A stretch of DNA of 64,000 bases from Reclinomonas americana ATCC 50394. Lineage: Eukaryota. The translations under genes were made by a program, and so were the position numbers. Positions 272 through 61,400 of the stretch are shown in pieces. The stretch is taken from contig PS015186.1 of NCBI GenBank assembly GCA_048213135.1, positions 1 to 64,000 of the forward strand, written 5' to 3'. Position 1 is the first letter of the stretch. The number at the start of each line of letters is the position of its first letter. The notes under the pieces are model-generated. The model had not been told where the DNA came from, searched no databases, and was given only the letters and a program-made list of their open reading frames with translations.

Positions 272-570
272 ATGCGGTTGCGACGCGCGTTTCTCTTTGT
301 CGTCGGTGAGCAAGCAACACACACACACACAGAGAATGAAAGAATATGAGACTCACACTCTTTCTCAACAGTACAACTCGCCACCTTTTTCATTGCCGGT
401 CTGCTCTTTGCGTGGCCACTGATTGTCGATGTGTGGCAACGAGAAGGCGATGAGTTGCGTTGGAGAGAGAGAGAGAGAGAAAGGAAGAACACACTCACAC
501 AGAGAGAGAATCATGACAAGTGCACTGCAACAGTCACTGCATAAACAGCGCACATCATGGCTCACTGAAG

Positions 571-637
<67 letters not shown>

Positions 638-694
638 CTCTCTCTCTCTCTCACTCNNNNNNNNNNNNNNNNNNNNNNNNNNNNNNNNACAGAC

Positions 695-762
<68 letters not shown>

Positions 763-3700
763 CTCTCTCTCTCTCTCACTCATGCGCTCATGCTCTCAGT
801 CGATCAATCACTCACTGTCACATTCTCGCTTTCAATCATTCTCTCACTCGGTCTCTCTTTGTCTCTCGCTCTCTTTCTCTTTCTCTTTCTCTTTTTGTCT
901 CTCTCTCTCTCTCTTCACTCTTCACTGTTCACGCCCATCATGCCTCGCATCTTCTGCAGTCATTTGCACAATCGACAGTTTGCGCACATCTCTTCTTTTT
1001 CTGCTTGTCTTGTCGTTCTTCTTGTTCTTGATCTTTTTCTGTTTCTTCTTCTTCTTCTTCTTCTCTTCCTCCTCCTCGTCCTCCTTCTCCTTCTCCTTCT
1101 CCTCCTCCTTCTCCTCCTCCTCCTCCTCCTCCTCTTCTTCTTCTTGTTCTTGTCCTTCCTCTTCTTGTCCTTCCTCTTCTCCTTCTTCCTCTTTTCCTTC
1201 TCCCTCTCCTTCTCCTCCTCGTCTTCCTCCTCCTCCTCCTCCTTCTTCTTCTTGTTCTTCTTCTTTGCCTGCCTCTTCTTCTTCTTCTTCTTCTTCTTCT
1301 TCTTCTTCTTGTTCTTCATGTTCTTATTGTTCATTTTGTTCTTATTGTTCCTCCTCCTCCTCCCTCTTCTTCTTCTTCTTCTTCTTCTTNNNNNNNNNNN
1401 NNNNNNNNNCTTCTTCTTCTTCTTCTTCTCCTTGTTCTTCTTCTTCCTCCTCCTCCTCCTCTTCTTTTTCTTCTCCTTCTTATTCTCTCTTTCTCACCCT
1501 CCCTTCCCTCTTCCTCTTCTTCTCCTCCTGTTCTTCTTTTCTTCTCTCCTCCTGTCTCCTCCTTCGCCTTCTCATTCACCCTTCTCCACCTTCATTCATC
1601 ACGTCACGCAGAGTCGACCTGAGCTTCCTGGGCATGACGTACGGAATCGCCGACTCGGTGCGTCGACTGGCGACGCTCGTGCTCGGCACGTTGCTGGACA
1701 AGTTTGGACCGCGGTTCACGTTGCGTGCGCCTCCTCCACCTGTCCGCACGCGTCGTGCTTGTCGCTCACGTGCTGCGTGCAGAATGGTGTACTGCGGATC
1801 GCTGTCGATCATTGGCTCGTTGTTCTTGTCGCAGCAGCGGTCGCAGATTGATGTGGTGCGTGTGGTGATCCAAGGGGAGCAGGAGCAGAGAGGATGGACA
1901 AGAGACAAGAAATTCGTGATGAGCAGAAAAGCTATAGAGAGAAGATGCTGTTGCACTTCCTCTAGTTGGGCACTCGAGAAATGGTATTCAGAGAAGGCGG
2001 GTGAGTCCTGAGGAATAGAGGAGAGAAGAGTACGGAGGATGCTGTCGAGTTCACGAGAACTGCGTTCACAAAAGACGGAAGGAGGGGGAGAAGAGATATT
2101 AGAGTTGAGATACATCATCATGCTTCTCCTCTTTCGATCGTTTCTCGACGAATGCGATGCCGAGTCTAGAGTTAAGCGAGCATGCCATTAGAATTCGTGT
2201 CCACTCCTTGTTCACTTCAACATTGTGCGACAATTCTCGTCCCTCTTTTTCGCACGAGTGCTCACCATGTTACTTGTCTCCCACTCAGCTTATCGGAGCC
2301 TGCTTGGTCGGCATCGGCGGCAATGCCATCGGCTACGGCGGTGAGCGTGCTCTCTCTCCTGTCTTCTCTCCTGCATCATATCAAACTGACACTTATTTTG
2401 CCTCTTCTTTCGCAGGATTCAAGGTTTATAATTCACTCATGTGCCCTTCCCCCCCTTCCCCTTCCCCTTAATCCACCCTTCCTCTTTATTCCCCCCTTCC
2501 CTTCCCCCACCAGATCGGCCGCCTCTTCCCCGGCCGCCAATCCACCATCATCAGCATCAACTCGGCGCTGTGGGAGGTGGCCTTCGTGGTCGGCCTCTTT
2601 TTCCGCGCCATCAATCAGGGTCTCGGACTGAGCATGCAGAGCATATTTATTCTGTACTCGCTGTGGACGGCAGTGCTGCTGGTGCTGCTGTGGATCGGGT
2701 GGACCATCAATCGCGCCGCCCTCATGGACCCCTCGCCGCTGGCGCCGAAACCGGCCGTGCCCGTTCTCGGCAGTCCCACGCGCAAGCCCTCCTCCCCGAA
2801 ATCACCGTCGCAGCCGCTCGTGCTCACCGACATGCGCCGCTCCGACGACAGCGGTGTCAAGCTGCTGCCGCGCGGCAACAAATCCTCCGACGACCTCAGC
2901 AGCAGCACCACCGCCAGCAGCGGCATGATGCGCGTCAGCACCGACAATGTCGGTCTGCTGCACGCCTCCACTGGCTCGCTCTCCAACTCGAACGCCTCGC
3001 TCGATTCGGCGGCCGCACCCGCGGCGGCGACTACTGCTGCGGCAGCGGCGGCGGCCGCCACCACCACCACCACGCCCACATCAGCGGCCAGTGGCTCGTC
3101 GTCACCTAACAACAACAGGAACGACAGTGTGGTGGCGACGATTGTGCCTCCCGTGTCGCCGGTGGCGTCGCCGGCTGCTGCGAATGCCGCCACGGTGGCC
3201 CGTGGTGGAGGAGAGAGTGATGGTGGCGGAGATGCGCAGGAGGGCGAGGAGTATGATGAGGAGCTGGCCGCTTTCGAGGCCGCCGATCTGGCCAAGGGCG
3301 CCGAGGTGCCGATCAAGACGCTGCCGGATCTGAAGCACCGCCTCACGTCGGAGTCGTGTCAGTTTGGTCTGTACACGCTGACGTCGTGGCGATTGCACAA
3401 GCCGCATTCGACGAGCGAGGTGAGGCTGAAAAGGAAGAGGGAGGGTGGGATGGGGGGAAGGGTAAAGGGATAAGCAGAGAACTACGAGAGCAGTGCGCGA
3501 ACAGAGTTGTCTGTCTGTGTTCCACAGATGACACTGCCGTGGTGGGCCTGTCTTGCTCTTTCTCCTCGTCACTGCCAGTGGGGGCTTTGGTGTATCACAT
3601 GACAGTTGCAGCGATAAAGAAGGAGAGACGTGCGGCAAGGGAAAGAGTGATGTGCACGCTGACCACCACACGCACAAGATAGAGAGAGAAGACAGAGAAC

Positions 3701-5963
3701 GAAGAGAGAAGCAAGAAGACAGAGAGGGATGGGAGAAGCGAGAATACAGAGTGTTTGTGAGAGAGAAGCGAGAAGGCAGAGATGGTAGGGAGAAACGAGA
3801 GACAGAGAGAGAGAGAGAGAGCAATGAGCTAGAGAGTAGAATTGAAGTTGAAAACAGCGGTGATGAGCAAGGGACGATAGGGCCAACAAAGGGCTTTCGA
3901 ACACTAAGAGGGACTTTTCTCTGCAATGTTGTTCATTTTGTTCCTTCTGCCTTCCCCAACTCACCGTTCATACTCTGCTTGTGCTGTGCTTCTCACACGG
4001 CGTGCTGCGTAACAGATGAAATCGCTCAAGCGTGGCCTCCTGTCGTGCGAGTTCTTCACGCTGGCCATTCTCGGTGCCTCGATGAATCTCTGCACGTCGT
4101 TCTACCTCGGCACGGTCAATGGCTTCCTCGAGTCGCTGACAGACAGCGCCACGGCCAAGGTACAAAACACTGCTGTCGTGTCACTCGATTGCCGTCGTGC
4201 TGCTCATCCATTGCTTGTCGTCAACGCAGACGTATGTGAGCGTCTTCTCGGTGGTCTACGTTGCGTTGCTCTTCCCACAACACTGCTGCCATGCGCGCCA
4301 CTCACTTTCCTTCCCCTCCGCCTCCACAGCCATTCACCGCCGCCACCGTCATTATCGGCGACATGGCTGTGAGATACTGGGGCATCTTTTGGGCCATGCT
4401 GCTGATGATGAGCACGGCTATGGTGCTGTGCATCTCGGCGGCCATGCCGGTGGTCGAGGTGCAAGTGATTTCCATGTTGATGATGGTGTTGCTGCGCGGG
4501 CAGGTGGGTCGAAAGGGGGAGAAGGGGGGAAGGGAGACGGGGGAAAGGAAAGAGTTGGCAAGTCAGTCTTTGTCTTCCTTGGTTTTGCGGCCTTTGCTTC
4601 TTTGTGCTTCTGAGTCCCCTCGTCGAATGGGATGATGTGGCAGAGCTTCAGAATATGTCGGCTCAGAGTAAGGTTCTGTGATTCTTTCAACCGACTGCTG
4701 CATCCTACGTTGGAGGGGAAATAGGATAGAGAGTTGCAGAAAGTTGTCGCCATTCTCACCTCTTCCCTTCCTTTGCGCAGTTTTCCGCTGGCATTGTTAT
4801 CCACTTTGCCGAACTGTTGCGTTGATCTCATCCCGTCAGTCGCACCACCCTCCTCCTCTCTAACATATTGCTCCAGGTACCCGCCAGCGCTCTTTGGTCG
4901 CATCATGGGCGCCTACAACGTTATCATGGCCATTGCCGCGCAGCTGCAAGTCGGTATGCATTGTTTACTCTCATCTGCTCTTCTCTCCGTCCGCCTCACT
5001 CTCACCTGCTCACACTTTTCTCACATTCCCTTCGCTCCCTCTCTCACTTGCACACTCTTTCGTTTTCCTCGCTTGCTCCCACTGTATCTCGTATTCCCCG
5101 CACCCACGCTTTTCAGTTTAGATTCCGCTCCCTCCGTTACTTTCGTTCCCCTTTAGTTCTCTCTGTCCTCTTTTTCTCCCTCTCTCAGTTCCTCATTCTT
5201 CGCTTGCTTTTCTTTCTTTCTCTTATTTGCTCACGCTCTTCGTCACCGTCTCATGCGCTATCGCTCCTCCCACTTTCCCTTCCGCTCCATTCCTCAGTTG
5301 CACAGTCTTTCGGGGTTTCTCAGCAGACTCTCTTCCCTTTCCTGAATCGCTCTCTCTCTCTCTCTCTCTCTTCCTTTGCTTTCTATTCTATCTCTCTCTC
5401 TCTCTCTCTCTCTTTCAGTTGCTCTTCACGTTTGATTTCCCCGGATACGGTTGAACTTGGTCATCAAGACAGCTATTGCTTGTTTGTTGGTGAATGAATT
5501 TGTTGTCTTCCCCCGCACTCATTCGCTCTCTCACTGTCGCCGTCTCCCGCTCTGTTTCATCATTCTCTTCTCCCTCCTTCCTGTGTCTCTCTCAATTCAC
5601 ACTTTTCGTTTTCCTCACCGACTCTCGCTGCAACCTTTCCCTCCTCCCTCTCTCGCTCCCTTTTTCTCTCTCCGTCTCTCAATTGCTCACATTCTTTCCA
5701 TCTCTCTCTCCCTCTCTCCCTTCCCCCCTCACCCTTTTCCAATTCTCGCAGGCCTCGTGTACGTCACCTACAACGTACTCAATCGCAACTTCACCGCCTC
5801 GTGGATCGTGCTCATGTGCATCGTGGCCATCAATTTCCCACTCGCCATCCGCCTGCGTCGCGTGTGCCCCGGGGTCAAAAAGCCCTCGGACATTTACCGC
5901 TTCATCCACGATCACGGTGTCAATGTGCACGACGTGCATCATCACATCACTGTTCACCTCTAG
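272..5963 (+). CDS. Multi-exon MFS transporter, SLC43/LAT3-like
   Basis: Spliced N-terminus MRLRRAFLFVV|VQLATFFIAGLLFAWPLIVDVWQREG; MFS motif-A-like GTLLDKFGPR (~1685-1715); YPPALFGRIMG (~4878); many hydrophobic exons; phase-compatible GT-AG introns; TAG at 5961-5963. Confidence 0.8.
5443..5504 (+). repeat. Repeat family A, partial copy in the last MFS intron
   Basis: Near-identical to about 52-112. Confidence 0.85.
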
Positions 5964-6020
5964 AAACAAAACAACACCACCAAATTAAAATATCTGTGTA
6001 TCGCGCACTCGCTCTCCTGT

Positions 6021-9000
6021 TTACAATCGGAATCTGCTGGCACATATTCTGTCGCCCTCCTCCAAGTACCTGTCAGACGGTGAGGTGAGGGGATGGGACA
6101 GCACTTGAACAGGCAACAGCAGAACGCAACTGCGCCTTGGTCACGGCATACGAGGCGAATTGCGACGATTGCGCAAACAGCGAGCCACCTCGCCAGGCCG
6201 AGAACGACGGCTGGGAGTTCGGCAGCACCGTCACGTCCACGTGGCTGGCAGAATCGCGCTGCAGCTCCAAGGTTCTGTGCGCCAGAGGGAATGAGCAAGT
6301 GGTGGAGAGGGACAGGGGGCGAGACGATGCGGCGCAACAATCTCTCCGCGAATCCCGGCATCTCGCTGCAGCCACCGACGCAGACGACGCTGGAAAGCAC
6401 AATCGGCTCGAGTTCGGCGGGCAACGAGCGCACTGATTCCATCACACACTCGGCGACGCCACACTGCGCCTTGCCGAGGACGTCTGCGGGGCAGAAGAGG
6501 ATCTCCGGCACGCAAAAGCGCTCGTTGCCGAGGGTGATGACGGTGCCGTCGTCGGCGGTGGCAGCAGCAGAGCTGCCACCAGGTGGTGCGTGCGTGTCGA
6601 CCTCCATGGCGGTGGAGGAGACAAGGGTGGTGGGTGGGATGGAGTCCTGTGCGATGGAAGAGTGAGAAGGGAAAGAGCAGCAGACAATACAGACAGACAG
6701 ACACGGACTCTCTGCCTCTCTCACTCTCGACCACACAGACAATGTAAAGACACACCACAGAATCGATCTCACGCACAAGCAAACTGATAATCACTGATAT
6801 CTCTCTGTGCTCCTTGCTCTCTCTGTGTTCCGTTCCCCTCGCAATGCTCCATCAATAATAAGAACAGGGAGAGTGTGCAAGAGGGGGAAAGTGAAGGTGC
6901 TCAATTCTTCCAACCTGTCAGCACAATCACTCTCTTGGCTTGTCCCTCACTCACAACAAGCTGACGTGGCCCTCCTTCTACCTTCCTCTCCAAACCCTTG
7001 AATAAAGACTCTCTGCCCCTCAACCCTTGCCCCATTTTCACCCTCCTTGAGTGACGGGAATTGGGGAGGGATCAATCACTACAACGGCACTCAGTTTCTC
7101 ACTCTCTTCTCCCTCTCTTCCCCCTCTCCCAGCCACGCAACTTTCACAAGCCCAAAGTGTCCGCTGCCGGGGCGGAACACGTAATCGCGCGCCAGCAGCT
7201 TGCGCGAGCGGCGAAGGCTCTCCAGATCGCGATCGAAGTCGGTCGACACGAAACACAGCTTCTCCTTCACGTCGTTGATGAGAATGGTTTCGTCCATGAC
7301 GTTGACCGAGCTGCGCGTCGCGTGTGAGAGAGAGAGGCGGAGGGAAACGGGAACGGACGGAATGTGCTCACCGGAACGTGAGCACCTCTTTCAGGTAGTT
7401 GGTCAGCAGCTTGCCGCCGACATTGATGCGACGAATGGCCGAGGCCACGGGAACGCCGTCGACAAAGGGTGTCACGGTGGTGGCCGAGAAGCCGCAGTCG
7501 ACCACCACGCCAGTGGACATGGTGCCTAAGGCGCTTTCGGGGAAGGCGCGGCTGGCGAATTCGTAGGAGAGGCCGGCGGCTGGTGAAGGGGAAAAGGAGG
7601 AGGGAGGGAGGGAGCAGAGAAGTGAGTGAGTGGGGAATGGGGGGAATGGGGGGAAGGGAGAGGGAGAGGGAGAGGGAGAGGGAGAGGGAGAGGGAGAGGG
7701 AGAGGGAGAGGGAGAGGGAGAGGAGAGGGAGAGGGAGAGGAGAGGGAGAGGGAGAGGGAAGAGAGAGAGAAGTAAGCAAGAAGAAGAAAGAAGAAGAAAG
7801 AAAGAAAATTAAAGTAAGAAAGGAAGAATATGTGTGCGTGTCCAGATTTCTCTTCTTCGATTTTTTCTCTCATGCATTATCTTTCTTTCATTTTTTCTTT
7901 CTTTCTTCTTCTTGCTTACTTCTCGCTCTCCCTCTCTCTCTCTCGCGAGAAAGGCGCGTCCTTTTGCAAGCGGCAAGAGAACGGCATCTAAAAGACAGGG
8001 AGACATCCCCCACTACTTCTGAAGTGCGAGCGACTGAGAACTGCAAGACAGACGAGAGACTGATGGGAGGGAAACCAGTTCGAATGAGTCTCTCTCTCTT
8101 CCCCTCACATGCTGGGCACGCAACTCGTCGCACGGGCGTACGATTTCCAGCCAAAGTATCTGTCGCACGGCGCATGAGAACAAGCGAATAAAACGAAGCG
8201 CCGTCTCCGTAGCGCAACTCAAACGCCATCTCATCCATGTCGTGCAGCAAGGTGGGCGGACATGCCACCGGCGAGGACACCAGCAGACAGCTCTCGCGAG
8301 GATTCGACTGTGCAAGGCGGTGAGGGGCAGGCGGGGATGGGATTGCTCTCAAGGCGAGACGCAACATTCATCACGCTGCTGCTAAAGATGCGCGACCAGA
8401 TGGCGCCCTCCACTTGAAAGTCGACGGGGAAGCCCTGAGGATCGGGAAGGAAATATTGTGCTGTTGAGGCAGACAACAAACACAAGCTCGCCCACTGCCA
8501 AGCAAACGCAACTCGCTCAAAAGGATACTTCAGCAGCAGCACCGACGAGTCGTCAACCTGGAAATAACACGAGTAAGTCTCAGAAACAGACGAAAGCTCG
8601 TCTCACATGCTCTCTGGCTCTTGTTCTGCGCGCGTGCTCATTTGCGTTGTATTTGATCCCTCTCTTCTGGCTTCTCTCGCTATTGCCACTCTCGTGCACT
8701 GCGTGTAAGGGAAGGCAAAGAACTAAAAAACGATTGCCAGAGTGAGAATGCCGTGAGTGAATTCATACAAAGTGAGCGATCAAAGAAAGGGGAGGAGAGG
8801 TGAAGCGAGGAGAGACAATGAGCGAAAGGCGCTGCAAGAGTGATAGCACACGAAGAGTGAATGCAATCCACGTGCTCCAGCCATGGAAACTGCAAGGGTG
8901 ACGGCACGTGTCTGTGTGACTACACCAATGCCAGCTGCAACTGCAGTCCCAGCACCACGTGCTCGAGTTACGCCAAGGGCACTTGCACGTGCGCTGCCAA

Positions 9001-9076: not shown

Positions 9077-9137
<61 letters not shown>

Positions 9138-34600: not shown

Positions 34601-36598
34601 CGCAACCGCATGCTCAAGTACACGCCGGAGCACATGCACTGTGTGGCCACGTTGTATGCGCCAGCGACGCCTCCCAACACGGGTCTGATGGCGTTCCAGT
34701 CGGTGGCCAATGATCTTGTTGCGTATGGGAAGCGGAGGGAGAAGTGCTGCAGATTCTTCCACTCATTCCTCTCCCTTGACAGGCACACTTCCGTGTCAGC
34801 GCCACTGGCGTCGTCCTGGAGCTGGATCAGAGTTTCACCGTGGTGAAGAAACTCAAGCTGGTCGGCTACCCCTACAAGATCATGCGCAACACGGCCTTCA
34901 TTCGCGGTACGTGACGCTGTCAATGTCGATGTCCGTGGGTGATGTGTTTTCTGCTCTCTCAACTCTCACTCTGCGCAGACATGTTCACGAGCGACCTGGA
35001 GGTGGCCAAGTTCTCCGGCGCCTCCCTGCGCACTGTCAGTGGCATTCGCGGGCAGGTGAAGAAGCCGGCGAAGGGTGGCCAGCCAGGTTCCTACCGTGCG
35101 ACGTTTGAGGACAAGATTTTGATGAGCGGTGAGGAAGGGGAAGGGGAACAAAGGGGAAGAGAGAGGAGGAAGGAAGCGAGAGACGAGAGGAAGGATAGTA
35201 TGAGACGCAGGATAGTAACGGGGAAGGAAAGAGAAATGAGAGGAAGATGTTGTGTGAAAGAGATGAGATATGAATAAGGGAGAGAAGAGAGACACGAAAT
35301 AGGAGAGAGGAGGAGAAATGTGAGAGACTAAAGAGGAAGAAACAGACACGAGGGAGAAAGAATGTAAGCGAGAGACTGAGAAGATGACACGTAAGAGGGA
35401 GGGGAACACGAAAGAGGACGAGAGCTAAAGAGAAGTTGGAAATGGAGGGAGGGTACGAGGAGAAAGCGGAAGAAGAGAGGTGAGAGACACGAAGAAGAAG
35501 ACAGTCTTGTGAGAGAGAGTGAGAGACGAAGAAAGAGACGAAGAGGAAGAGAACCGTGTGTGTGTGAGAGAGAAAGAGAAGTCGGAGATGGAAGAATGAG
35601 AAGGATGCGAGAAACAAGGAGAGAGACGCAGAGATGAAAACAGTGACGACGAGGAAGAAAGAGACTAGAGGAAGACAAATCTTGTATGAGAGTGAGTGAG
35701 AGTCGACGAAAGATACGAAGAGGAAGAGAACCATCTGTGTGTGTGAGAGAGAAAGCGCGGAAGGGAGGTGCAGAATGAGGTAAATGACACTGGTCAGGTA
35801 GTTGTACGAAGAGCGGGATAAGATTGAACACTGGAAAGCAACAGCACCTCTCCTGCGAAGCAGTTACAAGAATGGAAAGGGGGGCACACAGAGGAAGAGA
35901 GAGGAGTTACTTTCGATGAATTGATCAAGGGCAACGAGTTGCTGAGTTATGCCTGTGCTCCTTTCTCTTGTTCCCTTCTCCCCTTTCCCCCTTTCCCCTT
36001 TCCTTCCCCCTCAACCACAGACATTGTGTTCATCCGCACGTGGTACCCCGTCAAGATCCCGCGCTTCTACAACCCCATCCACTCGCTGCTGACGGGCGCC
36101 AAGAAGGACTTCCCGCACATGCGACCACTGCGCGAGCTGCGCATCGCGTACGACCTGAAGACGCCGGTCAACCCAGACTCGCTGTACAAGCCGGTTGAGC
36201 GCGTGGCACGCAAGTTTAACACGCTGAAGATTCCGCGACAGCTGCAGGCGCAGCTGCCGTTCAAGTCCAAGCCGAAGCAGATGGAGGCGCGCAAGTCCAC
36301 CAGCAAGACGCTAGTGCAGAAGCGTGCCGTCATTCTCGAACCGGAGGAGCGCAAGGCGCTGTCGTTCCTCAATCGTGTCAACACGGTACGCAACGAGCGC
36401 CTCCAGAAGCGCTTCGACAAGAGGAAGGAGCGCAAACAGGCGCACGGCAAGAAGAGGGCGCGCGAGGACGAGCGACTGCATCGCGTGCATCAGGAGCGCG
36501 TCAAGGCCGCCATGGTTGCCAAGGCACGCAAGGCAGCGGACACTGGCGGCGGGCCGGCGCGGAAGCGACGCAAGACCAACGATGGAGATTCCGACTGA
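28132..36598 (+). CDS. BMS1: Ribosome biogenesis GTPase BMS1 (three assembly gaps, apparently intronic)
   Basis: HNPK|AFA; HVPLIDR; P-loop [104 protein letters not shown]. Confidence 0.97.
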
Positions 36599-47537: not shown

Positions 47538-47655
47538 CAACAATTCATTCACCAACAAACAAGCAACAGCTGTCTTGATGACCAAGTTCAACCGTATCCA
47601 AAACATCAACACAGACACCAATATATCTTGAGGCAGCAGCAGGTTCCTTGTGTGT
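47538..47655 (-). repeat. Repeat family A copy, abutting a gap
   Basis: Reverse complement of 1-113 with small differences. Confidence 0.85.
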
Positions 47656-48196: not shown

Positions 48197-48300
48197 GAAC
48201 ACCAACAAACAAGCAACAGCTGTCTTGATGACCAAGCTCAACCATATCCAAAACATCACCACAGATACCAGTCTTGAGGCAGCAGCAGGTTCCTTGTGTT
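48197..48300 (-). repeat. Repeat family A copy, more diverged
   Basis: Reverse complement of about 2-100. Confidence 0.85.
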
Positions 48301-48868: not shown

Positions 48869-49742
48869 ATGGTGCGCTGTCGCCACCCACCACCCACACC
48901 CCCTCACACAGTCACGCACAACACATCGCACCACTCGCACACACGCGCCCGACATGCAAACAATGCTCACTCCCATTCGCACCTTACCAGGCCAAGGTCA
49001 ACAAAACAATCGACATTGTCTCGTGGCTGCTCGTCGTCTACGGCGTCTACATGCTCGTCTACGATGGGTTCTGGCGGGACGCGCAGCAGAGTGTGTCGCG
49101 CATGTGGTCGCAGATGATGGAGAACCCGCTGCTCGGAGGCAGTGTCGAGCACATGCGCGCTGGTGATGCAAAGGGAGCGGCGGGCAAGCAGCATGCCTTG
49201 TGGACGTATGCCATGGGGCATTTCTTGCCAGGTGTGTGAGAGAGGAGAGAGGTTGAGTGGTTCAGGTTGGTTTTCCGCGATGCATTCTATCACGATATAT
49301 CGTGTCTCTCCTTTGCGTTTCTCCGGAGATCCCCCCTCTCATTCTCTTTCTCTCCTCTCACTCTCTCTATCTCTCTCTCCCCTTCTCTCTCTCTCTCAGT
49401 TGCTCGCATCGGAAACAGGCTGTTGTTTCGGCTCTCGCACCCTCTATCTCCCTCTCCTTTCTCTCTTCACTCTTCTCCTCCCCCGCTCCCTCCCTTTGTC
49501 CCTCCCTCCCTCTCTCAGTTGCTGAATCTCCGACAAGTGCTGCTCGCCTATACTCACCTATTGTTGTTTCGGAACAGCTCGTTTGTTTTCTCCCTCTTTC
49601 TCTCCCTCTACCTTCCTTCCTCTGTCTCACTCAATTCCTGCATCTTCGACAAGTGCTTCTCGCCTGTCTCGCATCTCACCTCCCTTTGTTTCGGAAACAG
49701 CTCGTTATTTCGTCTCTCCCACCCTCTTTCTCTATCTCTTCT

Positions 49743-49781
<39 letters not shown>

Positions 49782-51132
49782 CTGCATCTATGACAAGTGG
49801 CGTCACCGAGACACAATTATTCTGCTCGTCGCGCTCCCTCCTTCCTCTCCCCGCCTCTCGCTGTCACCTCCCTCACTGCATCTTGGACAAAGCTTGGATC
49901 GCCATTCATGTCTCCGAGAAACAGTTCGTTTCTCCGGAGGCCTCCTCTCCTGCAAAATCTGAGGCCGTGGCACCACGCTCCACCCTCCTTCCTCTCACTT
50001 GTGTGATACTCTTTGTCGCCACGCTTTCCCCTTCCGCCCTTTGTTCTCATCTCCTCCTCCTTTCCTCCCCACAGGCGTCGTTCTTCAACTCATTGGCGGC
50101 ATCGCGGCGACGTTGATGGCCCGCGAGTGGCGACTCGTGCCGCGCGAAGACCTGCGCGCCCTGTTCACCACCATTATCACGCTGCTCGGCTCGGCGCCGG
50201 TGCTGGCTCCGCTGCACAAGGCGCTGTACGAGGGCACAATGGGCCAGCTGTACTTTGATGTGGATCAGCACTCGAGGTAAGACTGATCATGACGGCGGCG
50301 ACGACGAGAAGAGATGTTGCGCTTGTGTCGCACTCACGGTCGTGCAGGTGGTGGTTGCTGGCCTCGTTTTTGATTTCGGTGTTCACCACGGAGACTTGGT
50401 TCTATTGGGTGCATCGCGCCATGCACACTCCATTCCTGTACAAGGTGCAGCATGCATGGGATGGGAACACTCTTGTAGATATCTAGATCTGCTCTCCTGC
50501 CTCTCCTTCCCCCTCACCACCTCGTTGTTGTCGTCGCTTGCGCAGCACATCCACTCCGTCCACCACTCCTTCAACCCCTCCACGTCGTCCTGCGCCGCTG
50601 CATTCCACCCGCTCGACATTGTCGTCCTCACCATTGGCTCCTTCATCACCGCCTGCGTTATTCCGGTGCACCACGCCGTGCACACTGGTCTGCTGCTAAT
50701 CAACTTGTTTTACTCGATTTACCAGGTGCGTCAGCCACGTTACCGCAAGCAGCACTGGTGCACACTCACTCTTCTTGTGTCTCCAGCACACGGCCGTGCG
50801 CCACGATTACAGCTCGTTCGGCTTTGGCATTTTCTGCGGTGAGCCTTCTTCTTCCTCTCTCCTCCTGCACCCTTTTCTCACTTTCCCCCCCACATGAAGA
50901 CTCCAACCTGCACAACATCCACCACGACTACGGCATGAACGGCCGCAACCTCGGCAGTTTGCTGTGCATCTGGGACCGCCTGTGCGGCACGTACGTGGCG
51001 GAGGTTCCGCCGTGGATCAAGCTGTCGGACCAACTCAGCGTCCAGCCGCGCATGCAAAAGGCCGAAACACCGCGCGGCGAAAACGGCAGCGCCAAGCCGC
51101 GACAGCACAAGAAGGCGGTGAAGGCAGCGTGA
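48869..51132 (+). CDS. Sterol desaturase / fatty acid hydroxylase family (SC5D/ERG3-like)
   Basis: His boxes FYWVHRAMH, HIHSVHH and LHNIHH; AAAFHPLD; NLGSLLCIWDRLCGT. First coding exon is ATG only (atg|gtgcgc), spliced to 48991 (AKVNKTID). Confidence 0.88.
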
Positions 51133-51217: not shown

Positions 51218-53873
51218 TCAGTGCCGTTCGTTCAGCTCCGACTCGGATAGCACCACCGGTTGCGTGTCGTCCTCCACGACGACAGCCTCCTGCTCCTCGG
51301 TACCCCACCACCTGAAGCGACAAGCGGCAAAAGAGTGAGTCGTTCCGTTTTGTCTCTTTTCTCCCCCTCCCCTCCCCCCTTCCCCTCCCCCGTTCTCCCC
51401 TTTCCACCTCACCTCCTCCTCAGCACATGCACCTCCACCTGGCACCTCCTCGCACACCGATCCGTCGCATCGTGCACCGCATTGCGCCACATGACGTCGA
51501 CATCACGCGAGCCGAGTAACATGTATCGCGTCGGTTTCGGCGGCATCTCAAACAGGTGCGCATTCGCCGTCTGCACGTCGTCGTGGTTGCTGGCCGCCCA
51601 CTGCACGCACGTGTGAGGAGCTGAACTTAGCAAAAGCGCCCCTCTCTCACTCACACACACACACACCTTTCGCATCATTTGCACGCGCGCCACCTTGTGC
51701 AGGTACCGTTGCAGCTGGCGCATGAACTCGTTCCGCTGCCGGCGGTACACGCACCGCACCAGTTCCACGTTGGCCGGACACAGCTCGTCGGCCACAATGG
51801 TCTCGCACAGCAGCTGCATCTCGCGTTTTCGCGTGAGGAAAAACGGATTGGCCGCCGTGTCGTCGTCGGTCGTCACTCGACTCTTCTTCGTCGACGCCTC
51901 CGCGGCCTCCAGCTCTCGCTGTCGCGTCACTCGCACCAGCTTGGCGCGCTGCTGGCCGCTCTGGATCGTCAGGCAGGCCGCCATCTTGCCCAGCGGCGTC
52001 ACCGGGTCCTCGTCGGCGTCTAGCTCCAACAGACGCGTGCGCCGCAACTCGCACTCGCGCGTCCAGTGAAGACGCAGCAGGTCGCACCGAGCGCGGAAGA
52101 CCCTCATCCAGCCGCGCACCGTGTTTTGAATGCGACGCACTGTGAGCAGCAGCAGTGGTGGCCATGATGAGCATGTCGTGCACAATCGAAAGCAGCGGAG
52201 CGCCAAGCAAACCTCGCAGGAGAAAGAGACGAACGGCCGACTGCATGCGCTTCCGCTCGTGCAGCTCGATGAGCATGATGCGAATGACGGTGGTCGCCTT
52301 TCGCTTGCGCTTGACGCGCCGATTGACGGAGAGCCGCAGGGCACACGAATCCACCGTGTGCGCCAGACGACACCAGCGAACGTACCGGCGCATGCGAATG
52401 CGTGGCAAGAACACGCGCTGGAGGAGTTTCACGGCGCGTTCCCTCCGCTGTCGCCACTCGCGAATCGCACGGCTCACCTGTCACAGTGCAGGTTGAGGAA
52501 TCGTCTGCACGCATGAAAGGAAAAGAGAGGTACGAACAGCGAGACGAGTGCTCCATCGTCGTACGCGAGAGAACACGGCGGCCAAGTACATCCTGTGTAA
52601 AGACGAGTGAGCGGACGACGAACAAAACCGAGAGTGGAGGACAAAACAGGAAGGAGATGCGACGCAACCAGTACTGTTGGAAGCAGTGCACCACCGGCAG
52701 CACGTCGCGAATGTACTCCTTGCGTACAATGGCCTGCAGTCGGCAAGCGCAAGCGTGAGTGTACTACTGATACAGGCACGCGCTCGCGACATGATGCAGC
52801 ACACCTCGTCGGTTTTGCGCAAGAGTTTCGACAGCTCACGATCCAGCCGCTCCGCCTCGTGCTCCTCCATGTCATGCACGCGATGCTGCACCGTCTCCAG
52901 CTTGTGCTCCCGTTCCACCTTCTGCTTATCGTCTATCAGAGCCCGAGTCAGAGGAGCGAGCATATCCTTCCGACGCAACTCTCTCTATCAGCTCCTGTGA
53001 CAGCAGGTCGGGCGTGCGGTGGCCAACGGTGGCCTTGTTGTGCGCAACAATGTCGGTGATGCCAACTCGTGCCGCCTCCCACCGCAAGTGTCGCTCGTGC
53101 AAGTATGCCGCTGCGCAGTGGTCGGGGGGAGTGAGTGAGTGTTGAGTGCTTTGAAATCGTAAGAGGCGACGCACCGACACGCTTCTCCAGCATGATGCGG
53201 TCGGCTGGAACCGACTGCAGTTGTGCCAGGCGAATGCGCAGGCGCTCCGCAGCTGGAATACTCCTCCGTATCGGCGCGAGGTGCGCTGCAACACGGCGAG
53301 TGAGTGAGTGAGTGACTGAGCGAACGAGGGAGGGGAAATAAACAGACCAGCATGTGCCGCCTCGCGCGACCGCAGCAGCGATCGCTGTCTCCGCAGGTCT
53401 GTCGCATACACAAGATAAGGCCTCGGTGTCACCATGATTTGTCCTCTAACTCTCTCACCGTCATTCTCGTCTTCGGGATGCAGCGCTGGATCATTGTCGG
53501 CACCGACCCAATGGTCCTCCTTCAGCACACGAAAAATGGCGTCCATCTCGCTGTCGAAAGCCGCGCTGTCAATGTGGTTCGTGCGCGATGGCGACTGCTG
53601 TCGCGTCGGCGGCGAGTCCTGCTGTTGGCGACGGTGTGGCATTTGCTGCGGGGTGATGAAATCGAAACCGGGCGTGCGCGGTCGTGATGAGCGGCGTCCC
53701 TTGACCACACGATTCACCACGGCCATCACATTAGCCACAGCCGCAGCCTCTCCAGTCGGCACTGCTGGTGTTGCTGGGAGCTGCGGCAGTGAACTTGCGC
53801 GTGCATGAGGCGGAGAGGCGAGTGGTGGCGTCGGCGAACCCAGTCGCGGCGGAGTCGACCACGGATTGGCCAT
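51218..53873 (-). CDS. Unknown helical/coiled-coil protein, paralogue A
   Basis: MANPWSTPPRL start; phase-consistent exons; shares blocks with paralogues B and C (LRLSVNRRVKRKR; RARCDLLRLHW; PPKPTRYMLL). Confidence 0.7.
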
Positions 53874-55711: not shown

Positions 55712-55744
<33 letters not shown>

Positions 55745-58374
55745 GCGGCGACCACACTGGTCACATCGCCGACTCGCTCACAATCACGATCGCGCACTCG
55801 CCCGCAATCGGCCTCGTCGGTGCTCGATCGCAGGCGGCGATCGGTCAGCGCTGATGCGTCGTCACTAGAGTCGCCTCTTATGCCGTCGTCGCCGAGTCCG
55901 TCGATCAATCTGGAGCGTGTGATTCGAGAGCGCATGGCAGCACTGATGGACCCAGAGCATGAGCGGGAGAAGCGGGAGTTGTTCAAGCGCACCGCCGGCT
56001 ACGTCAAGGAGAAGAAGGATGCGCTGGATCTGTTGAAGAAGGAGGGCAAGTACCATCCGTTGCAGAACAAGCGCACCGCAGGCGAGCCTGGCATCGGCGT
56101 GGAGATACACGAGGAGTTTGCGCAAAAGAGAGTTTCGTGTCTCCTGCAACCTCTGCATCTGCAGCTTGATGTGTGACATCGCCCTTCCCCACTGCGCAGA
56201 AGGAGCTGGCGCTTCGTGCTGAAGAGCGTCGGCTGGCACTGGAGGAGCAGCAGAAGCGTGAGCGGGAGGAGCTGAGGGAGCAGGTGCAGGAAAAGTTGCA
56301 AAAGGCGGACGAGCGTCGTGCTTTCCTGGCCAGTCTGCCGCAGCTGGAGCGTCGTCTCAAGACCTGGCTCTATTTGGTGGAGGTAAGAGGCGCGCAGGGG
56401 GAGAGAGAGATATGGGAGATGCGCCTCTGACTGCGAGTGCTGCTCAGACATTCAACCGTGTGGCGATTTGGTCCGACACACTGGCCGCGCATCGTGAGCT
56501 CGTCTACCGACAGCAGCGTCGCGACAAGGCGGCGCGCACGCTGCAGCTTCGCTTGTGTCCCATGTTGCGTTGTGCAAGAAGGGAAAGAGAAATAGAAGGC
56601 AGACTGAATGAGAGGAGGAGAGGAAACACGGACAGAGATGGAAACAGCGAGGGTATGTGTGAGGAAGCACTTTCATGATTTAATGACGTCGATCGGCAAC
56701 AGCTGTCGACTCCGGTTGCGTCGTCGTCGCCGTCGTCTTGCAGTGGTTCTGGATCGCAACGCACTTCGAATGGCCATTGGTCGTCGCGTGCACCGGAAGC
56801 GGCGCATGCTCGTTCGCATCAAGGAGTACATGTGGGTGCTGGCCGCGCAGCTGGATGTAAGGAACAGGATGCATTTGTTTGCCCAGCGAGGTTTGACTTT
56901 CTGTGTTTCCTGCATTTCTATGCCTCGTGCACCGGTGCTTATTCGACTTGCAGTGCACATGGCACGGAGGGCATTCAACGACTTTGGTGTCTGCCACCGG
57001 CAGCGATGCGAGTTGTTCATGCTGCAGTGGCAGCTGTACATGGGTGCGGCGCTGGCTCGGGCGCAAGTTGCGTGAATGGGAGAGAGAGAGAGAGAGGGGG
57101 GGTGGGGAGGGCGCAGCGTGTTTCTCACTTACTCAACTTTCATCCGCCTCCGTCTTCCCTGTTCTAGAAGCAAAACACGTCATTCACCACACTCCTATAG
57201 TGCGTCAAATGTCCACATATCGCTTTCCTTGTCTCGTCTGTTGTCTCACTAGGTTGGTCTCGCGCTGGCTGTTGTCCTCCTGGTGATCCTCTGTTCCCGC
57301 AATGGCACTTGCCTGTCGAATATCCCTCTTCTTCTGATTCTTTCTTTCGCCCCGTGTCGCTTGCAGCTCGTCTTGAAAATTGCATTGCACCCTGTGACAC
57401 TCTGTCGCACGCTCTACCTTGCCGTGATTTCTTTCCTTTGGATCGTCGTCGTCGGTCTCTTGTCTGTCTCCTCACTCTATAATTGCGCGCAGAAAATTGT
57501 CGAGGCCTCGGACGAGCGGAGACCTCAGTTGCGTCAGTCTCTCTTTCACTCTTTTTTCATTCCTTTTTCTCTCTTTCTTTTTCTCCCTCTCCTTCTCCCT
57601 CTCCCTCCCTCTCCCTTTTTCCCGTCTCACCCTCCCTGCGATGCACTCACTCTTTTTCTCTCCTTCCAGATCGGCGCCGGTTGGTCGGCGGCGAGCGCAT
57701 TCCGTTCAACGACCTGGTCGTCGCCAGCAACAGGTCATGCCACCAGACCTGCTGCGCTTCCGCCACATTCTGCCGGCAATCGCCAAGGAAGATGTGCCAT
57801 TAATGCTCAAGATGAAATCGTTGCGCCGCCGCATCCCAGGCGTTTCCGAGTGGTGGGTGCCCCGTGTCTCACAAAGCTTCGCGCAGAAGCACCGATTTGT
57901 CGCGCACGTACATTTGGCGAGCGGTATGGGCGAGTCGACGAGGTATGTGATGTTGTTTGTGTCACGCCCACCAGCGCTCCAGTGGTTCACACGGATGCGC
58001 GCCAGATTTCTTGACGCAGGGACGACAATATCGTATCGATCTGGCGCAGTGGGAGCGTGAGCGAGCGACGCTGGCCAGCTTGGGTCCGGTAGCACTCGCT
58101 CGATGCACCGCGCCACCAAAGCCACCAGTGCGTCGCACCCTGTTGACTGCCGAGCAACTATTAGAGTTGTGGGAGGTGAGGGTCGACTCGCAGTGTACAC
58201 ATGCATGCATCGCGGATTCCTCACTCTTTCCTGATGCAGCTGTCGTGCGTCCTGTATGGCATCCGTGCACTTGGCGCCAGCATGCCACCATCGTCACCAC
58301 CACCCTCCAAGTCGCCGTCGGCCGCACACTCACGTCGAACGAGTTCCATCAGCACCAGTCAGTCGAGCAAGTGA
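55140..58374 (+). CDS. Unknown helical/coiled-coil protein, paralogue B
   Basis: MSTRRRPHTAG start; RRAFLASLPQLERRLKTWLYL; LRMAIGRRVHRKR; DFGVCHRQRCELFMLQWQLY; PPKPPVRRTLL; TGA at 58372-58374. Confidence 0.72.
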
Positions 58375-58412
58375 AATTACTTCTCGTTACACTCTTCCCC
58401 TGAGCCGCTTTA

Positions 58413-61400
58413 CTACGTTTCACTTGCTGATGTTTGTTTCGAGCGTTTGCAAATGGGGGCCGGCTGCAGTTGTATGCCCATGTCGTCGTCGACCACTGCC
58501 GGCAGGCTGCGCACACTTGATGATGACGACAGTCGGCTGGCGGTCGGTGACATGGGACGTGAGAGGCCATGACCGCTCGCAGTCTGCGGCCGACTCCCCG
58601 AACGTGACGATGGTGTGAGTGCGCGGGAGGTGGCGGAGGTTGGTCTCCGCGCTGATGAAACACGGCTGGTGGCGCTGCTGCTGCTGCTGCCGCCGTCAGC
58701 GTTGGCGGTGCGCGAGTGTGCTCCTCCTCGTGCGGAACTGTTGCTTCGCGACTGCCGCAGCATCACGAGCAGCATGCGGTCGGCGTCCACCCCCAACTCC
58801 GCAGCTGCGTTGCACAGGGCGCTGAACATGCATCCCTGTCGGTGCGCGAGTGTGAGTATCAGCATGAACGTCTGTGTAGTTGTTGTGCGTCGCAACCATA
58901 CCTGGAACATGGCGTGCAACTCGTCCTGTTTCAGCAAGCTGCGGACAATGGGCGCGCGTGGTCGGTTCTCGTCGATCCACGGCTGCACCATGGCTCTGGT
59001 GTTGGCCTGCATCTCCGCATCCGTCACCGCACCACCGCCACCCATCAGCAGCTGCAGTGACATGGACTGCGACCATCGCACCTGTGGAGTTGGGAGAAGG
59101 ATTCTTGTCAACGACTGCGCCCACACATGAACAGAGCAGTGCCAGGCAACTCACCGCGCAATCGCGTTCAAACGCGTCATGCGCCGCCAGGTACTGCCTC
59201 CGTGCTTCGGTGTGCTGCCGGCGTAGTCGACGAACAGCCTCACGCAACTGAAAGCGCACGTCGTCGCCGTCGAGTGCAGCGGAAATGTACGGCCGTAGAA
59301 CATCAAGCGGCGACCGTGTGCCCGCCGCAAAACTGCCCCCGGTCACCGACGAGCTCACCGGTGCGGCGTAGCTGCCACGCGGCGAGTAGGCTTCTGAGTA
59401 TGCTGTGGAAGGGCGACTGTTGTCTGCTGCTGCTGTTGTCGCCGACAATGGTCGCCGACCATTGACTGTCACGGTAAGCAGGAGTCGATGGCTGCTGCCG
59501 CTGGGACTGTCGGTGGAGCCTGCGGGTGGTGTCAGCGGCCGTCTGCTCGAGAATCGCGTCGACTCAGAGCCGCCATCAGTGTCGCGATCGGGAGACGACA
59601 TGATCCGCTGCAGTGCCACCAGCTGTCGGTGCGTCTCCGTCTCCGAGTGAATCATCCGCACAAACTGCTTTGCACTGTAGGCGTTCCACTGCCGAGTGAG
59701 CAGCGACAGGCGTTCGCGTTGGCACAAGACAAAGTCCACAATCACGTCGGTGGCTCGGTGAACTGCGTCGTGTGGTGGTGGTGAGAGGTGGGGAAAACGG
59801 CAGGCGTTGAACCTTCATGACGAAGTATAGACGACGCAACTGTGCATGACGCAGAGGTGTACGCGATGTCGCAGGCGGTTGAACGACGCAAAGATCTCCA
59901 GTGACTCGTAGATGCGAGCAATGGCCAGACGACGGCGGTGAATACGCCGCCCGATAGAGAAGCGGAGAAGGTTGCCGAAACTGTAGTTGGTGAGTGGTGT
60001 GAGGTGGAGCAACAAAAGGAGAAGGGCCATGCATTCAAACAAACAAACCGACACAACACACTGGCGAGACGGCGGCGTTTCTTGTGCATGTAGAATCGCC
60101 ACATTGGCACCACCATGGTGTTGAAGGTGCGCATGGCACGTTGACAGGCTTCCACTTGATCACGCAAGTTGCGCGAGGCCTGCCGATCGCAAGTGCAAGT
60201 GATGAGCTAAATTGTCGACGTCGTGACACCAGTAGAAGAAGCAATGCACGCAACTGCTAAACAGTACCGCATCAGCTGCGATGTGAGCAGAGGAATGAGT
60301 GAGTTTTTTTCCTGCGTGCGTCATTTTGAGCACAGCAGTGGCACAGACCTCGAAGCGTGAGGCCAAAAAGACGAAGGCAAGCCACTTTTGCTGCTGCTTG
60401 CGCAAGCGTGGCAACTCCACCAGCATAAAGTCTCGTCGACGGTCAGCCTGTGAAGACGAGAGTGTGAATGGTGACTACAACTGCTTTGGTGCGTTGCCCT
60501 GCAGATCGAACTCGCTCACCTGCTCGCCCTTCACCGCGAGCTCCTCTCGCAGCTGCTCTGCTGCAATGTGCTTCTCCACGGCATCGTGCTGCCGATGCTC
60601 AGCGGCACTCTCGATACGTGAGCGGAGTGTTTCGTTCTGCAGAGAACAACAGGCGGTCAGTGGTGACACAAAGGGAGCATGCAGATTCATCGCTACACAC
60701 CCTCCGACGAATCTCTTCCTCCACCTGCTCCCGCGACAGCTTGAATGCCTGCTCCCTGTTCTGCTTCACCAGGTTCACTTTCGGTACAGGTTTCGCTTCT
60801 TGACGCTCCTCCAGCGTGGCCTCTGTGTGGCACGACACGGATTGACTACTCGGAAACGCATTCGTCACCAAACAAGAAGCAATCGCAACTCACCCACACG
60901 CATCTCCAGTGCAGCTCTGGCCGCAGCATCGTCCTGCAACGCAAACAACTTTTCCTGTAATCTGCTCCACGCAGAGATGCGTCGCCTCTGACCCGCCTCA
61001 TCCTCCTCCCCCTCCTCCTCTTCGACAAGCATCGAATCGGTGCGGGAATTCGGTGATGACACTCCCCACGGTTTGTACGTCTGCAGCAGTGCCATCCTGG
61101 CCGGTGATCCCGCCATGCTCAGTGCCGCAGTCTCCGACTGTTGAGTCACTGTGTATGTGTGTGTGAGCAGCAGCTGAGCAATCAGAAGAGAGTCCCACTG
61201 TGGCGCCTCGTGACGCAACTCTCGACGTGATGCTGATGCAATATGGTTCCAATGTCACGCGTCAGATCGCTCCACGCCCTCTCGTGATGCGACGGCCCTT
61301 GCGCTTCGTCACGGTGCTGTTGTTGATGGTGGTGATGATGATGGTGATGCTGCGCCGCTGGTGATGCTGTTGGTGACGGAGGCGATGCCACCATGGTCGG

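What the first reader, a model, noticed from the sequence alone, without database searches (positions are those of the whole stretch)
454..61219. Abundant non-standard 5' splice site GTTGCG(Y) with C at +5, used mainly after non-G exon ends
Seen: 25 introns whose boundaries fit the reading frame start with GTTGCG followed by T or C. They are MFS 454, 1720, 4260; ARP6 (minus) 8512, 8365, 8218, 8124, 7141, 6338, 6130 (7 of its 10 introns); fucosyltransferase 11845, 12574, 13139, 14481; BMS1 28593, 33283, 34718; JmjC 40862; paralogues 52979, 52668, 56564, 57067, 57528, 59840, 61219. Only one (52668) has G at exon -1, whereas the other three ARP6 donors are G|GTGAG. Known: U2-type donors are GTRAGT-like with a highly conserved +5G read by U1 and the U6 ACAGAGA box. 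Inference: GTTGCGY equals GTGCGY plus one extra T, so this lineage may use a bulged or shifted pairing register at scale, or carry variant U1/U6 snRNAs, giving two donor classes.
Basis: partly seen in the sequence, partly recalled or inferred. Interest (0 to 1): 0.9.

Follow-up and report, generated by a model that had tools for sequence, protein, structure and literature searches.

The report
Second splice-donor class GTTGCGY
In this unidentified intron-rich protist, about four in ten verifiable introns begin with the fixed sequence GTTGCG(T/C) instead of the usual GTRAGT-like start, which points to a second way of recognising intron starts that still has to be found.

Summary
The motif is real and marks intron starts. 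GTTGCGY occurs 55 times against 24.8±4.5 expected. Spliced alignments that required only GT/GC...AG put it at 10 of 24 well-supported intron starts in ARP6, BMS1 and a fucosyltransferase gene (p=8e-16); an eleventh has weaker support.

- 11 are supported by homology.
- 6 have only intron-like signals.
- 8 stay unresolved.
- The "paralogue" label is unsupported.

The link to the last exon base holds. G at -1 is seen in 0 of 11 GTTGCG donors against 12 of 14 other donors.

The other donors fit a standard U1 5' end (mean -6.8 kcal/mol). GTTGCG donors do not, even with bulges allowed (-1.0; random GT sites -2.7). The bulged-register idea is therefore poorly supported.

Both classes share the same branch and acceptor signals, and the introns are not copies of one element.

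Best reading, inferred only: a second, sequence-specific recogniser, most likely a variant U1-like snRNA beside a standard one.

No genome, snRNA gene or RNA data could be reached.

The parts
8435..8512 (-). ARP6 intron, 78 nt, cga|GTTGCGT...CCTCAG, phase 0
   Evidence: 2 of 8 spanning alignments. It joins YPFER|GFPVDF, as in the homologues. The nearer CAACAG acceptor would be out of frame (read).
8308..8365 (-). ARP6 intron, 58 nt, aat|GTTGCGT...GCACAG, phase 0
   Evidence: 4 of 10. CTCAC lies 16 nt before the 3' end.
8160..8218 (-). ARP6 intron, 59 nt, tga|GTTGCGC...CGACAG, phase 2
   Evidence: exact intron 6 of 12, donor 8 of 12.
7580..8124 (-). ARP6 intron, 545 nt, cga|GTTGCGT...CACCAG, phase 1; it contains microsatellites and a long hairpin
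   Evidence: 5 of 12.
6275..6338 (-). ARP6 intron, 64 nt, att|GTTGCGC...GCACAG, phase 2
   Evidence: 5 of 7.
6070..6130 (-). ARP6 intron, 61 nt, gca|GTTGCGT...TGACAG, phase 2
   Evidence: 4 of 4.
12574..13061 (+). Fucosyltransferase intron, 488 nt, gaa|GTTGCGC...CCCCAG; it contains a tandem repeat
   Evidence: 2 of 6, including the best homologue P0133. It fell below the listing threshold, so support is weaker.
13139..13209 (+). Fucosyltransferase intron, 71 nt, cta|GTTGCGC...GCGCAG, phase 2
   Evidence: 13 of 19.
14481..14810 (+). Fucosyltransferase intron, 330 nt, ccc|GTTGCGC...CTGCAG, phase 2
   Evidence: 5 of 17.
28593..28664 (+). BMS1 intron, 72 nt, gga|GTTGCGT...TGATAG, phase 0; it splits the GTPase P-loop GPPG|VGKT
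   Evidence: 24 of 26. Alignment shown.
34718..34782 (+). BMS1 intron, 65 nt, ctt|GTTGCGT...TGACAG, phase 0
   Evidence: 20 of 30. A further 8 of 30 choose the GC three bases downstream.
7311..7371 (-). Example of the other class: ARP6 intron ccg|GTGAGC...GCGCAG
   Evidence: 11 of 11.
30251..30317 (+). Example of the other class: BMS1 intron aag|GTGCTG...CCGCAG
   Evidence: 29 of 29.
34907..34978 (+). Example of the other class: BMS1 intron gcg|GTACGT...GCGCAG
   Evidence: 27 of 30.
1720..1782 (+). Claimed donor in the MFS-like gene, supported by signals only (63-nt intron model, CTCAY...YAG)
   Evidence: No homologues were found.
4260..4329 (+). Claimed donor in the MFS-like gene, supported by signals only (70-nt intron model)
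52593..52668 (-). Claimed donor ctg|GTTGCGT, the only claimed one after G; signals only (76-nt model ending CTCAC...ACACAG)
6647..7141 (-). Claimed ARP6 donor aaa|GTTGCGT; the boundary is unresolved
   Evidence: Homology prefers 7136-6573 because the region is unconserved. The 7141-6647 model keeps the frame open and has CTCAC plus GCACAG.

Best explanation
These are ordinary GT-AG spliceosomal introns that fall into two donor classes.

Class B is about 14 of 24 well-supported introns. It looks like (A/G)AG|GTRNG and fits a standard U1 5' end.

Class A is about 10 of 24. It has the fixed intronic word GTTGCG followed by T or C, with no G and mostly A at -1, and it does not fit a standard U1.

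Both classes use the same branch-site and acceptor signals, so the 3' side is read by one machinery (U2).

I infer that class A is recognised by a second, sequence-specific reader of the 5' splice site. The most likely reader is a variant U1-like snRNA whose 5' end is complementary to GUUGCG(Y), with a G opposite +7 that would accept both U and C. It would work beside a standard U1, and U6 would then engage GCG(Y) one position further into the intron than usual.

Shown here: the introns, the two classes, the -1 dichotomy, the shared 3' signals and the lack of fit to a standard U1.

For: - The motif lies at 10 of 24 well-supported intron starts found without using it. GTTGCGY makes up 55 of 7526 GT sites (p=8e-16).
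- All 11 class A donors are identical at +1 to +6, with T or C at +7 (6 T, 5 C).
- G at -1: 0/11 against 12/14.
- Among the 25 claimed sites, 1 has G at -1, against 8 of the 30 other GTTGCGY sites (p=0.004).
- Predicted pairing to the canonical U1 5' end: class B -6.8, random GT sites -2.7±2.3, class A -1.0 kcal/mol. So a standard U1 probably exists but cannot account for class A.
- CTCAY-type branch sites 9-30 nt before YAG occur in both classes.
- In the three aligned genes the motif lies 16 times on the sense strand and 4 times on the antisense strand. All four antisense hits are inside exons (coordinates; gene spans; p=0.012).
- Precedent from passages read (Roy & Bowser preprint, 10.1101/2022.06.08.495308): Entamoeba U1 reads ACAAAC for GUUUGU donors, Mastigamoeba U1 reads ACGUAC, and Physarum is said to have both standard and modified U1 variants.
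- Precedent from PMC12621601, section 8: two U1 genes with different 5' ends in the diplonemid S. specki.
Against:
- A U1 complementary to GUUGCG would need four changes in a region that is almost invariant among eukaryotes.
- U6 must still accept +5C.
- GTGCGT donors after a non-G also occur (31371 ggc|, 34076 cga|).
- The sample is three genes from one 64-kb window.
- RNAduplex energies ignore pseudouridines and the U1 proteins.
- 14 of the 25 claimed sites are not verified as introns.
Confidence: 0.4

Rival explanations
1. One reading: one standard U1 (and U6) reads GUUGCGY in a register with the extra U at +2/+3 bulged out, which makes it equivalent to GUGCGY.
For: A one-nucleotide bulge at +3 (or +2) is an experimentally validated register in human cells (PMC4856993, passages). 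GTGCGT donors after non-G exist in the same gene (31371 and 34076). A shift of U6 pairing by one base would place G+6 and U+7 where G+5 and U+6 normally sit (inference).
Against: RNAduplex, which allows bulges, finds at best -2.5 and on average -1.0 kcal/mol, below random GT sites. Even un-bulged GTGCGT after a non-G gives only -2.1. The model does not explain why +3T, +4G and +5C are invariant, or why better-pairing GTTGAGT or GTTAAGT forms were not found among the 24 supported donors. Nor does it explain why the weakest-pairing class is the one that does without -1G. In human cells this register covers 54-68 of 201,541 sites, not about 40%.
Confidence: 0.2
2. Class A is a transformed and expanded minor-spliceosome (U12-type-like) intron class, read by a co-evolved U11/U6atac.
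For: Like U12-type donors, class A has a rigid extended intronic motif and no dependence on -1G. A massive expansion with transformed signals is reported for Physarum (10.1101/2020.10.12.336362; only the search listing and the start of the abstract were seen).
Against: The branch and acceptor signals are the same CTCAY...YAG as in class B, not a distinct conserved branch box. The motif shares only G1, T2, C5 and sometimes T7 with the U12-type consensus (consensus recalled). No minor snRNA could be searched for.
Confidence: 0.12
3. Recognition is independent of U1 and mediated by a protein. An RNA-binding protein binds GUUGCG and recruits the spliceosome, or the tri-snRNP engages directly.
For: The motif does not fit standard U1. 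An invariant 6-7-nt word has the size of a protein binding site (inference).
Against: No candidate protein was found. Known spliceosomes define the 5' splice site mainly by RNA pairing (established knowledge). The T/C ambiguity at +7 is most simply a G·U / G-C pair.
Confidence: 0.13
4. Class A introns descend from a mobile intron-generating element (introner) that brought its own complete donor to arbitrary insertion sites. The motif would be inherited rather than specially read.
For: The flanking exon sequence is not a proto-splice site: no MAG|R around class A introns, whereas 8 of 14 class B introns follow AAG or GAG.
Against: The intron interiors share no similarity beyond low-complexity matches (best E about 6e-4, 32 bits, on microsatellites). 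Cognate intron ends pair no better than non-cognate ends (-5.4 against -5.3). An old burst would still need selection, and therefore a reader, to keep seven positions fixed.
Confidence: 0.1
5. Artefact: the motif is a coding or repeat word and the intron models are wrong.
For: 14 of the 25 claimed sites lack independent support. The antisense word occurs in exons (4 cases in BMS1).
Against: Conserved protein motifs are joined exactly across these introns, for example 28593 in 24 of 26 alignments.
Confidence: 0.03

Closest known systems
Co-evolved U1 snRNA and atypical donors in Entamoeba (GUUUGU with U1 ACAAAC) and Mastigamoeba balamuthi (U1 ACGUAC; donors GUGCGC): Roy & Bowser preprint 10.1101/2022.06.08.495308 (passages read)
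   Same: A lineage-specific donor word that does not fit standard U1 and starts with GUU (Entamoeba) or contains GCG (Mastigamoeba). The proposed solution is a changed U1 5' end.
   Different: In those species the atypical donor is nearly universal and one U1 serves it. Here only about 40% of donors carry the word and the rest fit standard U1, so two readers would have to coexist. Four changes would be needed, against one or two. No U1 gene was seen here.
Non-canonical bulged and asymmetric-loop 5'ss/U1 registers in human (Tan et al. 2016, PMC4856993; passages read)
   Same: GU followed by an extra U before a G-containing core.
   Different: The human cases are about 1.5% of sites, keep exonic pairing and gain energy from the bulge register. 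Here the predicted energy stays near zero and the class is abundant and invariant.
U12-type (minor) introns and their expansion in Physarum (10.1101/2020.10.12.336362; listing and start of abstract only)
   Same: Two donor classes in one genome, one of them with a rigid intronic motif and no need for -1G.
   Different: No separate branch-site box. The motif is different. The minor snRNAs could not be tested.
Two U1 genes with different 5' ends in the diplonemid Sulcionema specki (PMC12621601, sections 5 and 8 read)
   Same: Precedent for standard and non-standard U1 5' ends coexisting.
   Different: There both variants fit the same weak G|GT logo, and no second donor class was reported. Diplonemid donors are (G)/GTATG, not GTTGCG.
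GYGCGY donors of Mamiellales and +4C donors of Thecamonas trahens with standard U1 (as described)
   Same: GC-rich donors with C at +4 and GCG cores.
   Different: Those lack the extra T and keep G at +5. No dichotomy with the -1 base is described in the passages read.

Membership tests
U2-type GT-AG spliceosomal introns | GT at the 5' end and AG at the 3' end; removal restores the reading frame of a conserved protein | tested here: met
   10-11 class A introns were recovered by protein-to-genome alignment.
U2-type GT-AG spliceosomal introns | YTNAY-type branch site shortly upstream of a YAG acceptor | tested here: met
   CTCAY, CTGAT or CTTAT lies 9-30 nt before YAG in most introns of both classes.
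U2-type GT-AG spliceosomal introns | Donor complementary to the standard U1 5' end, with G at +5 | tested here: not met
   Class A has C at +5 in 11/11 and a mean duplex energy of -1.0 kcal/mol, against -6.8 for class B.
U2-type GT-AG spliceosomal introns | Spliced junctions seen in RNA | not testable with these tools
   No RNA run was listed.
U12-type (minor) introns | RTATCCTT-like donor | tested here: not met
   The donor is GTTGCGY. The consensus is recalled, not taken from a call.
U12-type (minor) introns | Distinct conserved branch box close to the 3' end | tested here: not met
   The branch motif is the same as in class B.
U12-type (minor) introns | U11, U12, U4atac and U6atac genes present | not testable with these tools
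   No genome is held. There are none in the window.
Bulged-register 5' splice sites on standard U1 | The bulged register pairs clearly better than the canonical register and gives a stable duplex | tested here: not met
   RNAduplex, with bulges allowed, gives between +0.7 and -2.5 kcal/mol.
Co-evolved U1 / atypical donor systems (Entamoeba type) | A U1 gene whose 5' end is complementary to the atypical donor | not testable with these tools
   No genome is held.
Co-evolved U1 / atypical donor systems (Entamoeba type) | The atypical donor is nearly universal in the genome | tested here: not met
   10 of 24 supported donors.
Introner elements | Copies share sequence along their length | tested here: not met
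   blastn of the intron interiors gives only low-complexity matches.
Euglenid-type nonconventional introns | No GT-AG; intron ends base-pair | tested here: not met
   GT-AG throughout. Cognate end pairing equals non-cognate end pairing.

The most novel reading that the evidence does not exclude
An intron-rich eukaryote runs two parallel 5' splice-site recognition systems inside the major spliceosome. One is a standard U1 for (A/G)AG|GTRNG donors. The other is a U1-like snRNA with a rewritten 5' end (complementary to GUUGCGY) that serves a third or more of all introns independently of the exon end. U6 would then engage one nucleotide out of the usual register.
Probability: 0.3. Interest if true: 0.8.

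Novelty: new variant of a known kind. Interest (0 to 1): 0.62.

Why it matters
The U1 5' end and the +5G of donors are among the most conserved features of splicing. The few known exceptions (Entamoeba, Mastigamoeba) replaced one consensus by another.

A genome where a standard class and a rigid, U1-incompatible class coexist at comparable frequency would be a natural experiment on three questions:
- how 5' splice sites are defined;
- how splice signals and snRNAs co-evolve in an intron-rich genome;
- how far U6 tolerates C at +5.

In practice, gene finders trained on standard donors will mis-annotate such genomes. My own naive parser chose neighbouring GTs at several of these sites.

Tried and rejected
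- Whole genome: none is held.
- Rfam at gathering thresholds: nothing.
- Rfam at E≤1: only spurious miRNA and snoRNA hits on low-complexity hairpins at 7743-7945 and about 31606-31736, and no snRNA.
- Relatives in metagenome contigs for the BMS1 exon: none.
- Homologues for the MFS-like exon: none.
- Pfam on single exons: weak JmjC/cupin (E 0.04), FA_hydroxylase and Pkinase hits, nothing for the MFS-like exons, so no coordinate check of those junctions was possible.
- ESM Atlas: only generic BMS1 clusters and no taxon clue.
- Organism: not identified. The best named BMS1 hit is the jakobid Andalucia godoyi at 57% identity, and an unnamed hit reaches 66%. A. godoyi itself is intron-poor. Diplonemids have GTATG donors. 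Mastigamoeba has 60.7% GC, 3.4 introns per gene and GUGCGC donors. None of these matches.
- My ab initio codon-usage parser chained genes and mis-set boundaries.
- My frame-consistency census had a flawed null, with real equal to null.
- Flank coding scores did not separate the motif from permuted controls (6/55 against 0-4 per control).
- Hexamer over-representation on both strands is modest (79 against 45, z=5) and is swamped by microsatellites.
- Literature: full-text searches for GTTGCG or GUUGCG with 'splice site', 'intron' or 'donor' returned only unrelated primer or sequence hits. Sequence logos in figures and supplements cannot be searched. The supplements of PMC10161547, PMC12621601 and PMC8136499 were not seen and could bear on prior description.

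Full report
**What the window is.** The window is eukaryotic nuclear DNA. GC runs from 40% to 61% by 4-kb bin, and there are nine N runs. GC3 is 0.79 in verified coding sequence, and microsatellites are abundant. No genome is held for it. No RNA run was listed.

The organism could not be named. The BMS1 exon finds an unnamed protein at 66% identity, then the jakobid Andalucia godoyi at 57%, then a broad mix of eukaryotes near 50%. The window's own proteins did not appear in the database.

**The observation.** GTTGCGY occurs 55 times on the two strands, against 24.8±4.5 in dinucleotide-preserving shuffles (0 of 100 reach 55).

To test whether they are intron starts without using the motif, I wrote a protein-to-genome alignment routine. 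It allows introns only as GT/GC...AG and uses no other splice information. I ran it with 12 ARP6, 21 fucosyltransferase and 30 BMS1 homologues (single examples).

Ten GTTGCGY donors are recovered. Support is given as alignments with exactly that intron out of alignments spanning it:

| Donor | Gene | Support |
|---|---|---|
| 8512 | ARP6 | 2/8 |
| 8365 | ARP6 | 4/10 |
| 8218 | ARP6 | 6/12 |
| 8124 | ARP6 | 5/12 |
| 6338 | ARP6 | 5/7 |
| 6130 | ARP6 | 4/4 |
| 13139 | fucosyltransferase | 13/19 |
| 14481 | fucosyltransferase | 5/17 |
| 28593 | BMS1 | 24/26 |
| 34718 | BMS1 | 20/30 |

An eleventh donor, 12574, is used by 2 of 6 homologues, including the closest one. It fell below my listing threshold.

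The 28593 intron splits the GTPase P-loop exactly (GPPG|VGKT).

With GTTGCGY being 55 of 7526 GT sites, 10 of 24 supported donors gives p=8e-16.

Three claimed sites in these genes remain open. For 7141 the routine prefers the GT at 7136, although a 7141-6647 model is open and well signalled. Site 33283 competes with 33288. Site 11845 lies in an unconserved N-terminal region.

For the other eleven claimed sites I had no homologues. Together with 33283, six unverified claimed sites have a CTCAY...YAG module at intron-like distance. Over all sites, 18 of 55 have one, against 14% of all GT sites (p=4e-4).

The "paralogues" label is not supported.

**Two classes.** The 14 other well-supported donors are these:

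| Donor | Sequence |
|---|---|
| 9695 | gag\|GTGAGA |
| 7371 | ccg\|GTGAGC |
| 28258 | aag\|GCAAGT |
| 28797 | gag\|GTGTGC |
| 30251 | aag\|GTGCTG |
| 31371 | ggc\|GTGCGT |
| 34076 | cga\|GTGCGT |
| 34255 | aag\|GTTTGT |
| 34907 | gcg\|GTACGT |
| 35129 | gcg\|GTGAGG |
| 13436 | aag\|GTAAGG |
| 13615 | aag\|GTGGGG |
| 14348 | atg\|GTGAGC |
| 14887 | aag\|GTCGAT |

Twelve of these 14 follow a G. None of the 10-11 GTTGCG donors does (7 A, 3 T, 1 C).
- The first tally of 0/11 against 12/14 gives Fisher p=2e-5. It used 33694 in place of 34076.
- With the rows only, 0/10 against 12/14 gives p=7e-5.
- Adding four low-support rows, 0/10 against 12/18 gives p=9e-4.

Among the 25 claimed sites, 1 has G at -1. 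Among the 30 other GTTGCGY sites, 8 do (p=0.004). So G is avoided rather than merely unnecessary.

Class B shows R at -3, A at -2, G at -1, R at +3 and G at +5 (12/14). Class A is invariant from +1 to +6, has Y at +7 and no clear preference after that.

**What reads the donors.** I computed duplex energies with RNAduplex, which permits bulges and internal loops, against the canonical U1 5' end.
- Class B averages -6.8 kcal/mol.
- 400 random GT sites of the window average -2.7±2.3.
- Class A averages -1.0, with a best value of -2.5.

Class B therefore behaves as expected for a standard U1. Class A pairs worse than chance.

It covers only a small share of human sites, and the bulged register gains energy there (PMC4856993, passages). 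Here it gains nothing, and it leaves the invariance of +3T, +4G and +5C unexplained.

The un-bulged GTGCGT after a non-G (31371) reaches only -2.1. Such donors do exist (31371 and 34076), so some continuity between GTGCGT and GTTGCGT cannot be excluded.

**One spliceosome or two?** Both classes have the same 3' module: CTCAC, CTCAT, CTGAT or CTTAT lies 9-30 nt before a (C)AG. This argues against a separate minor-type branch recognition.

The interiors of the introns share nothing beyond microsatellite matches. The 5' ends pair no better with their own 3' ends than with foreign ones (-5.4 against -5.3 kcal/mol). This argues against a recent introner family and against Euglena-like end-paired introns.

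In the three aligned genes the motif lies 16 times on the sense strand and 4 times on the antisense strand. All four antisense hits are inside BMS1 exons. No sense-strand copy lies inside a supported exon (coordinates; gene spans; p=0.012).

**Best reading.** An invariant seven-position word that makes the exon end irrelevant calls for a dedicated, sequence-specific reader.

The most economical candidate is a second U1-like snRNA with a complementary 5' end. A G opposite +7 would accept both U and C.

There are precedents:
- Entamoeba and Mastigamoeba have U1 pairing regions changed to match their atypical donors. Physarum is said to carry both standard and modified U1 genes (Roy & Bowser preprint, passages).
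- A diplonemid has two U1 genes with different 5' ends (PMC12621601, section 8).

What would be new is the coexistence of a standard and a rewritten system at comparable frequency in an intron-rich genome, and a donor with C at +5. None of this could be tested: the window holds no snRNA gene.

**Novelty.** Full-text searches for the word together with splice terms found nothing relevant. Logos in figures and the closed supplements could not be checked, and the organism is unknown, so prior description cannot be excluded.

I rate it a new variant of a known kind (lineage-specific transformed donor signals). The interest is real, but it rests on three genes in one window.

Noticed in passing
window 28258-28445 (+): A GC-AG intron in BMS1 (aag|GCAAGT...GATTAG), chosen by 17 of 25 spanning alignments despite an extra penalty for GC donors.
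   Followed up: partly
window 13642-15324 and 19273-20923; also 15323-15632 and 26845-27135: A segmental duplication at 91% identity covers the 3' half of the fucosyltransferase gene. The second copy keeps the donor word (GTTGCGT at 20092) but has TAA in the reading frame just before it, so it looks like a decaying partial copy.
   Followed up: partly
window 7743-7945: A long, near-perfect low-complexity hairpin (purine-rich arm facing a pyrimidine-rich arm) lies inside the 545-nt ARP6 intron. It causes spurious sub-threshold miRNA, snoRNA and RNase P hits in Rfam.
   Followed up: no
window 1-113, 5443-5506, 47538-47654, 48200-48299: A dispersed repeat of about 100 nt at 91-97% identity, in both orientations. 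It flanks the MFS-like gene and an N gap near 47.5 kb and may be the end of a mobile element.
   Followed up: no
window 12616-13020: A tandem repeat array inside the 488-nt fucosyltransferase intron, seen as self-matches at about 80-83% identity.
   Followed up: no
Their products are low-complexity, Ser/Ala/Pro-rich ORFs.
   Followed up: partly
window 48985-51126 (+): A fatty-acid hydroxylase / sterol desaturase-like gene (histidine boxes; Pfam FA_hydroxylase E=1.4e-4 on one exon). Its ab initio introns all have standard-looking donors (gag|GTAAGA, aag|GTGCAG, cag|GTGCGT, gcg|GTGAGC). These are predictions only.
   Followed up: no
Each is followed at 61-73 nt by a branch-like motif and a YAG and may be further class A donors.
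   Followed up: no
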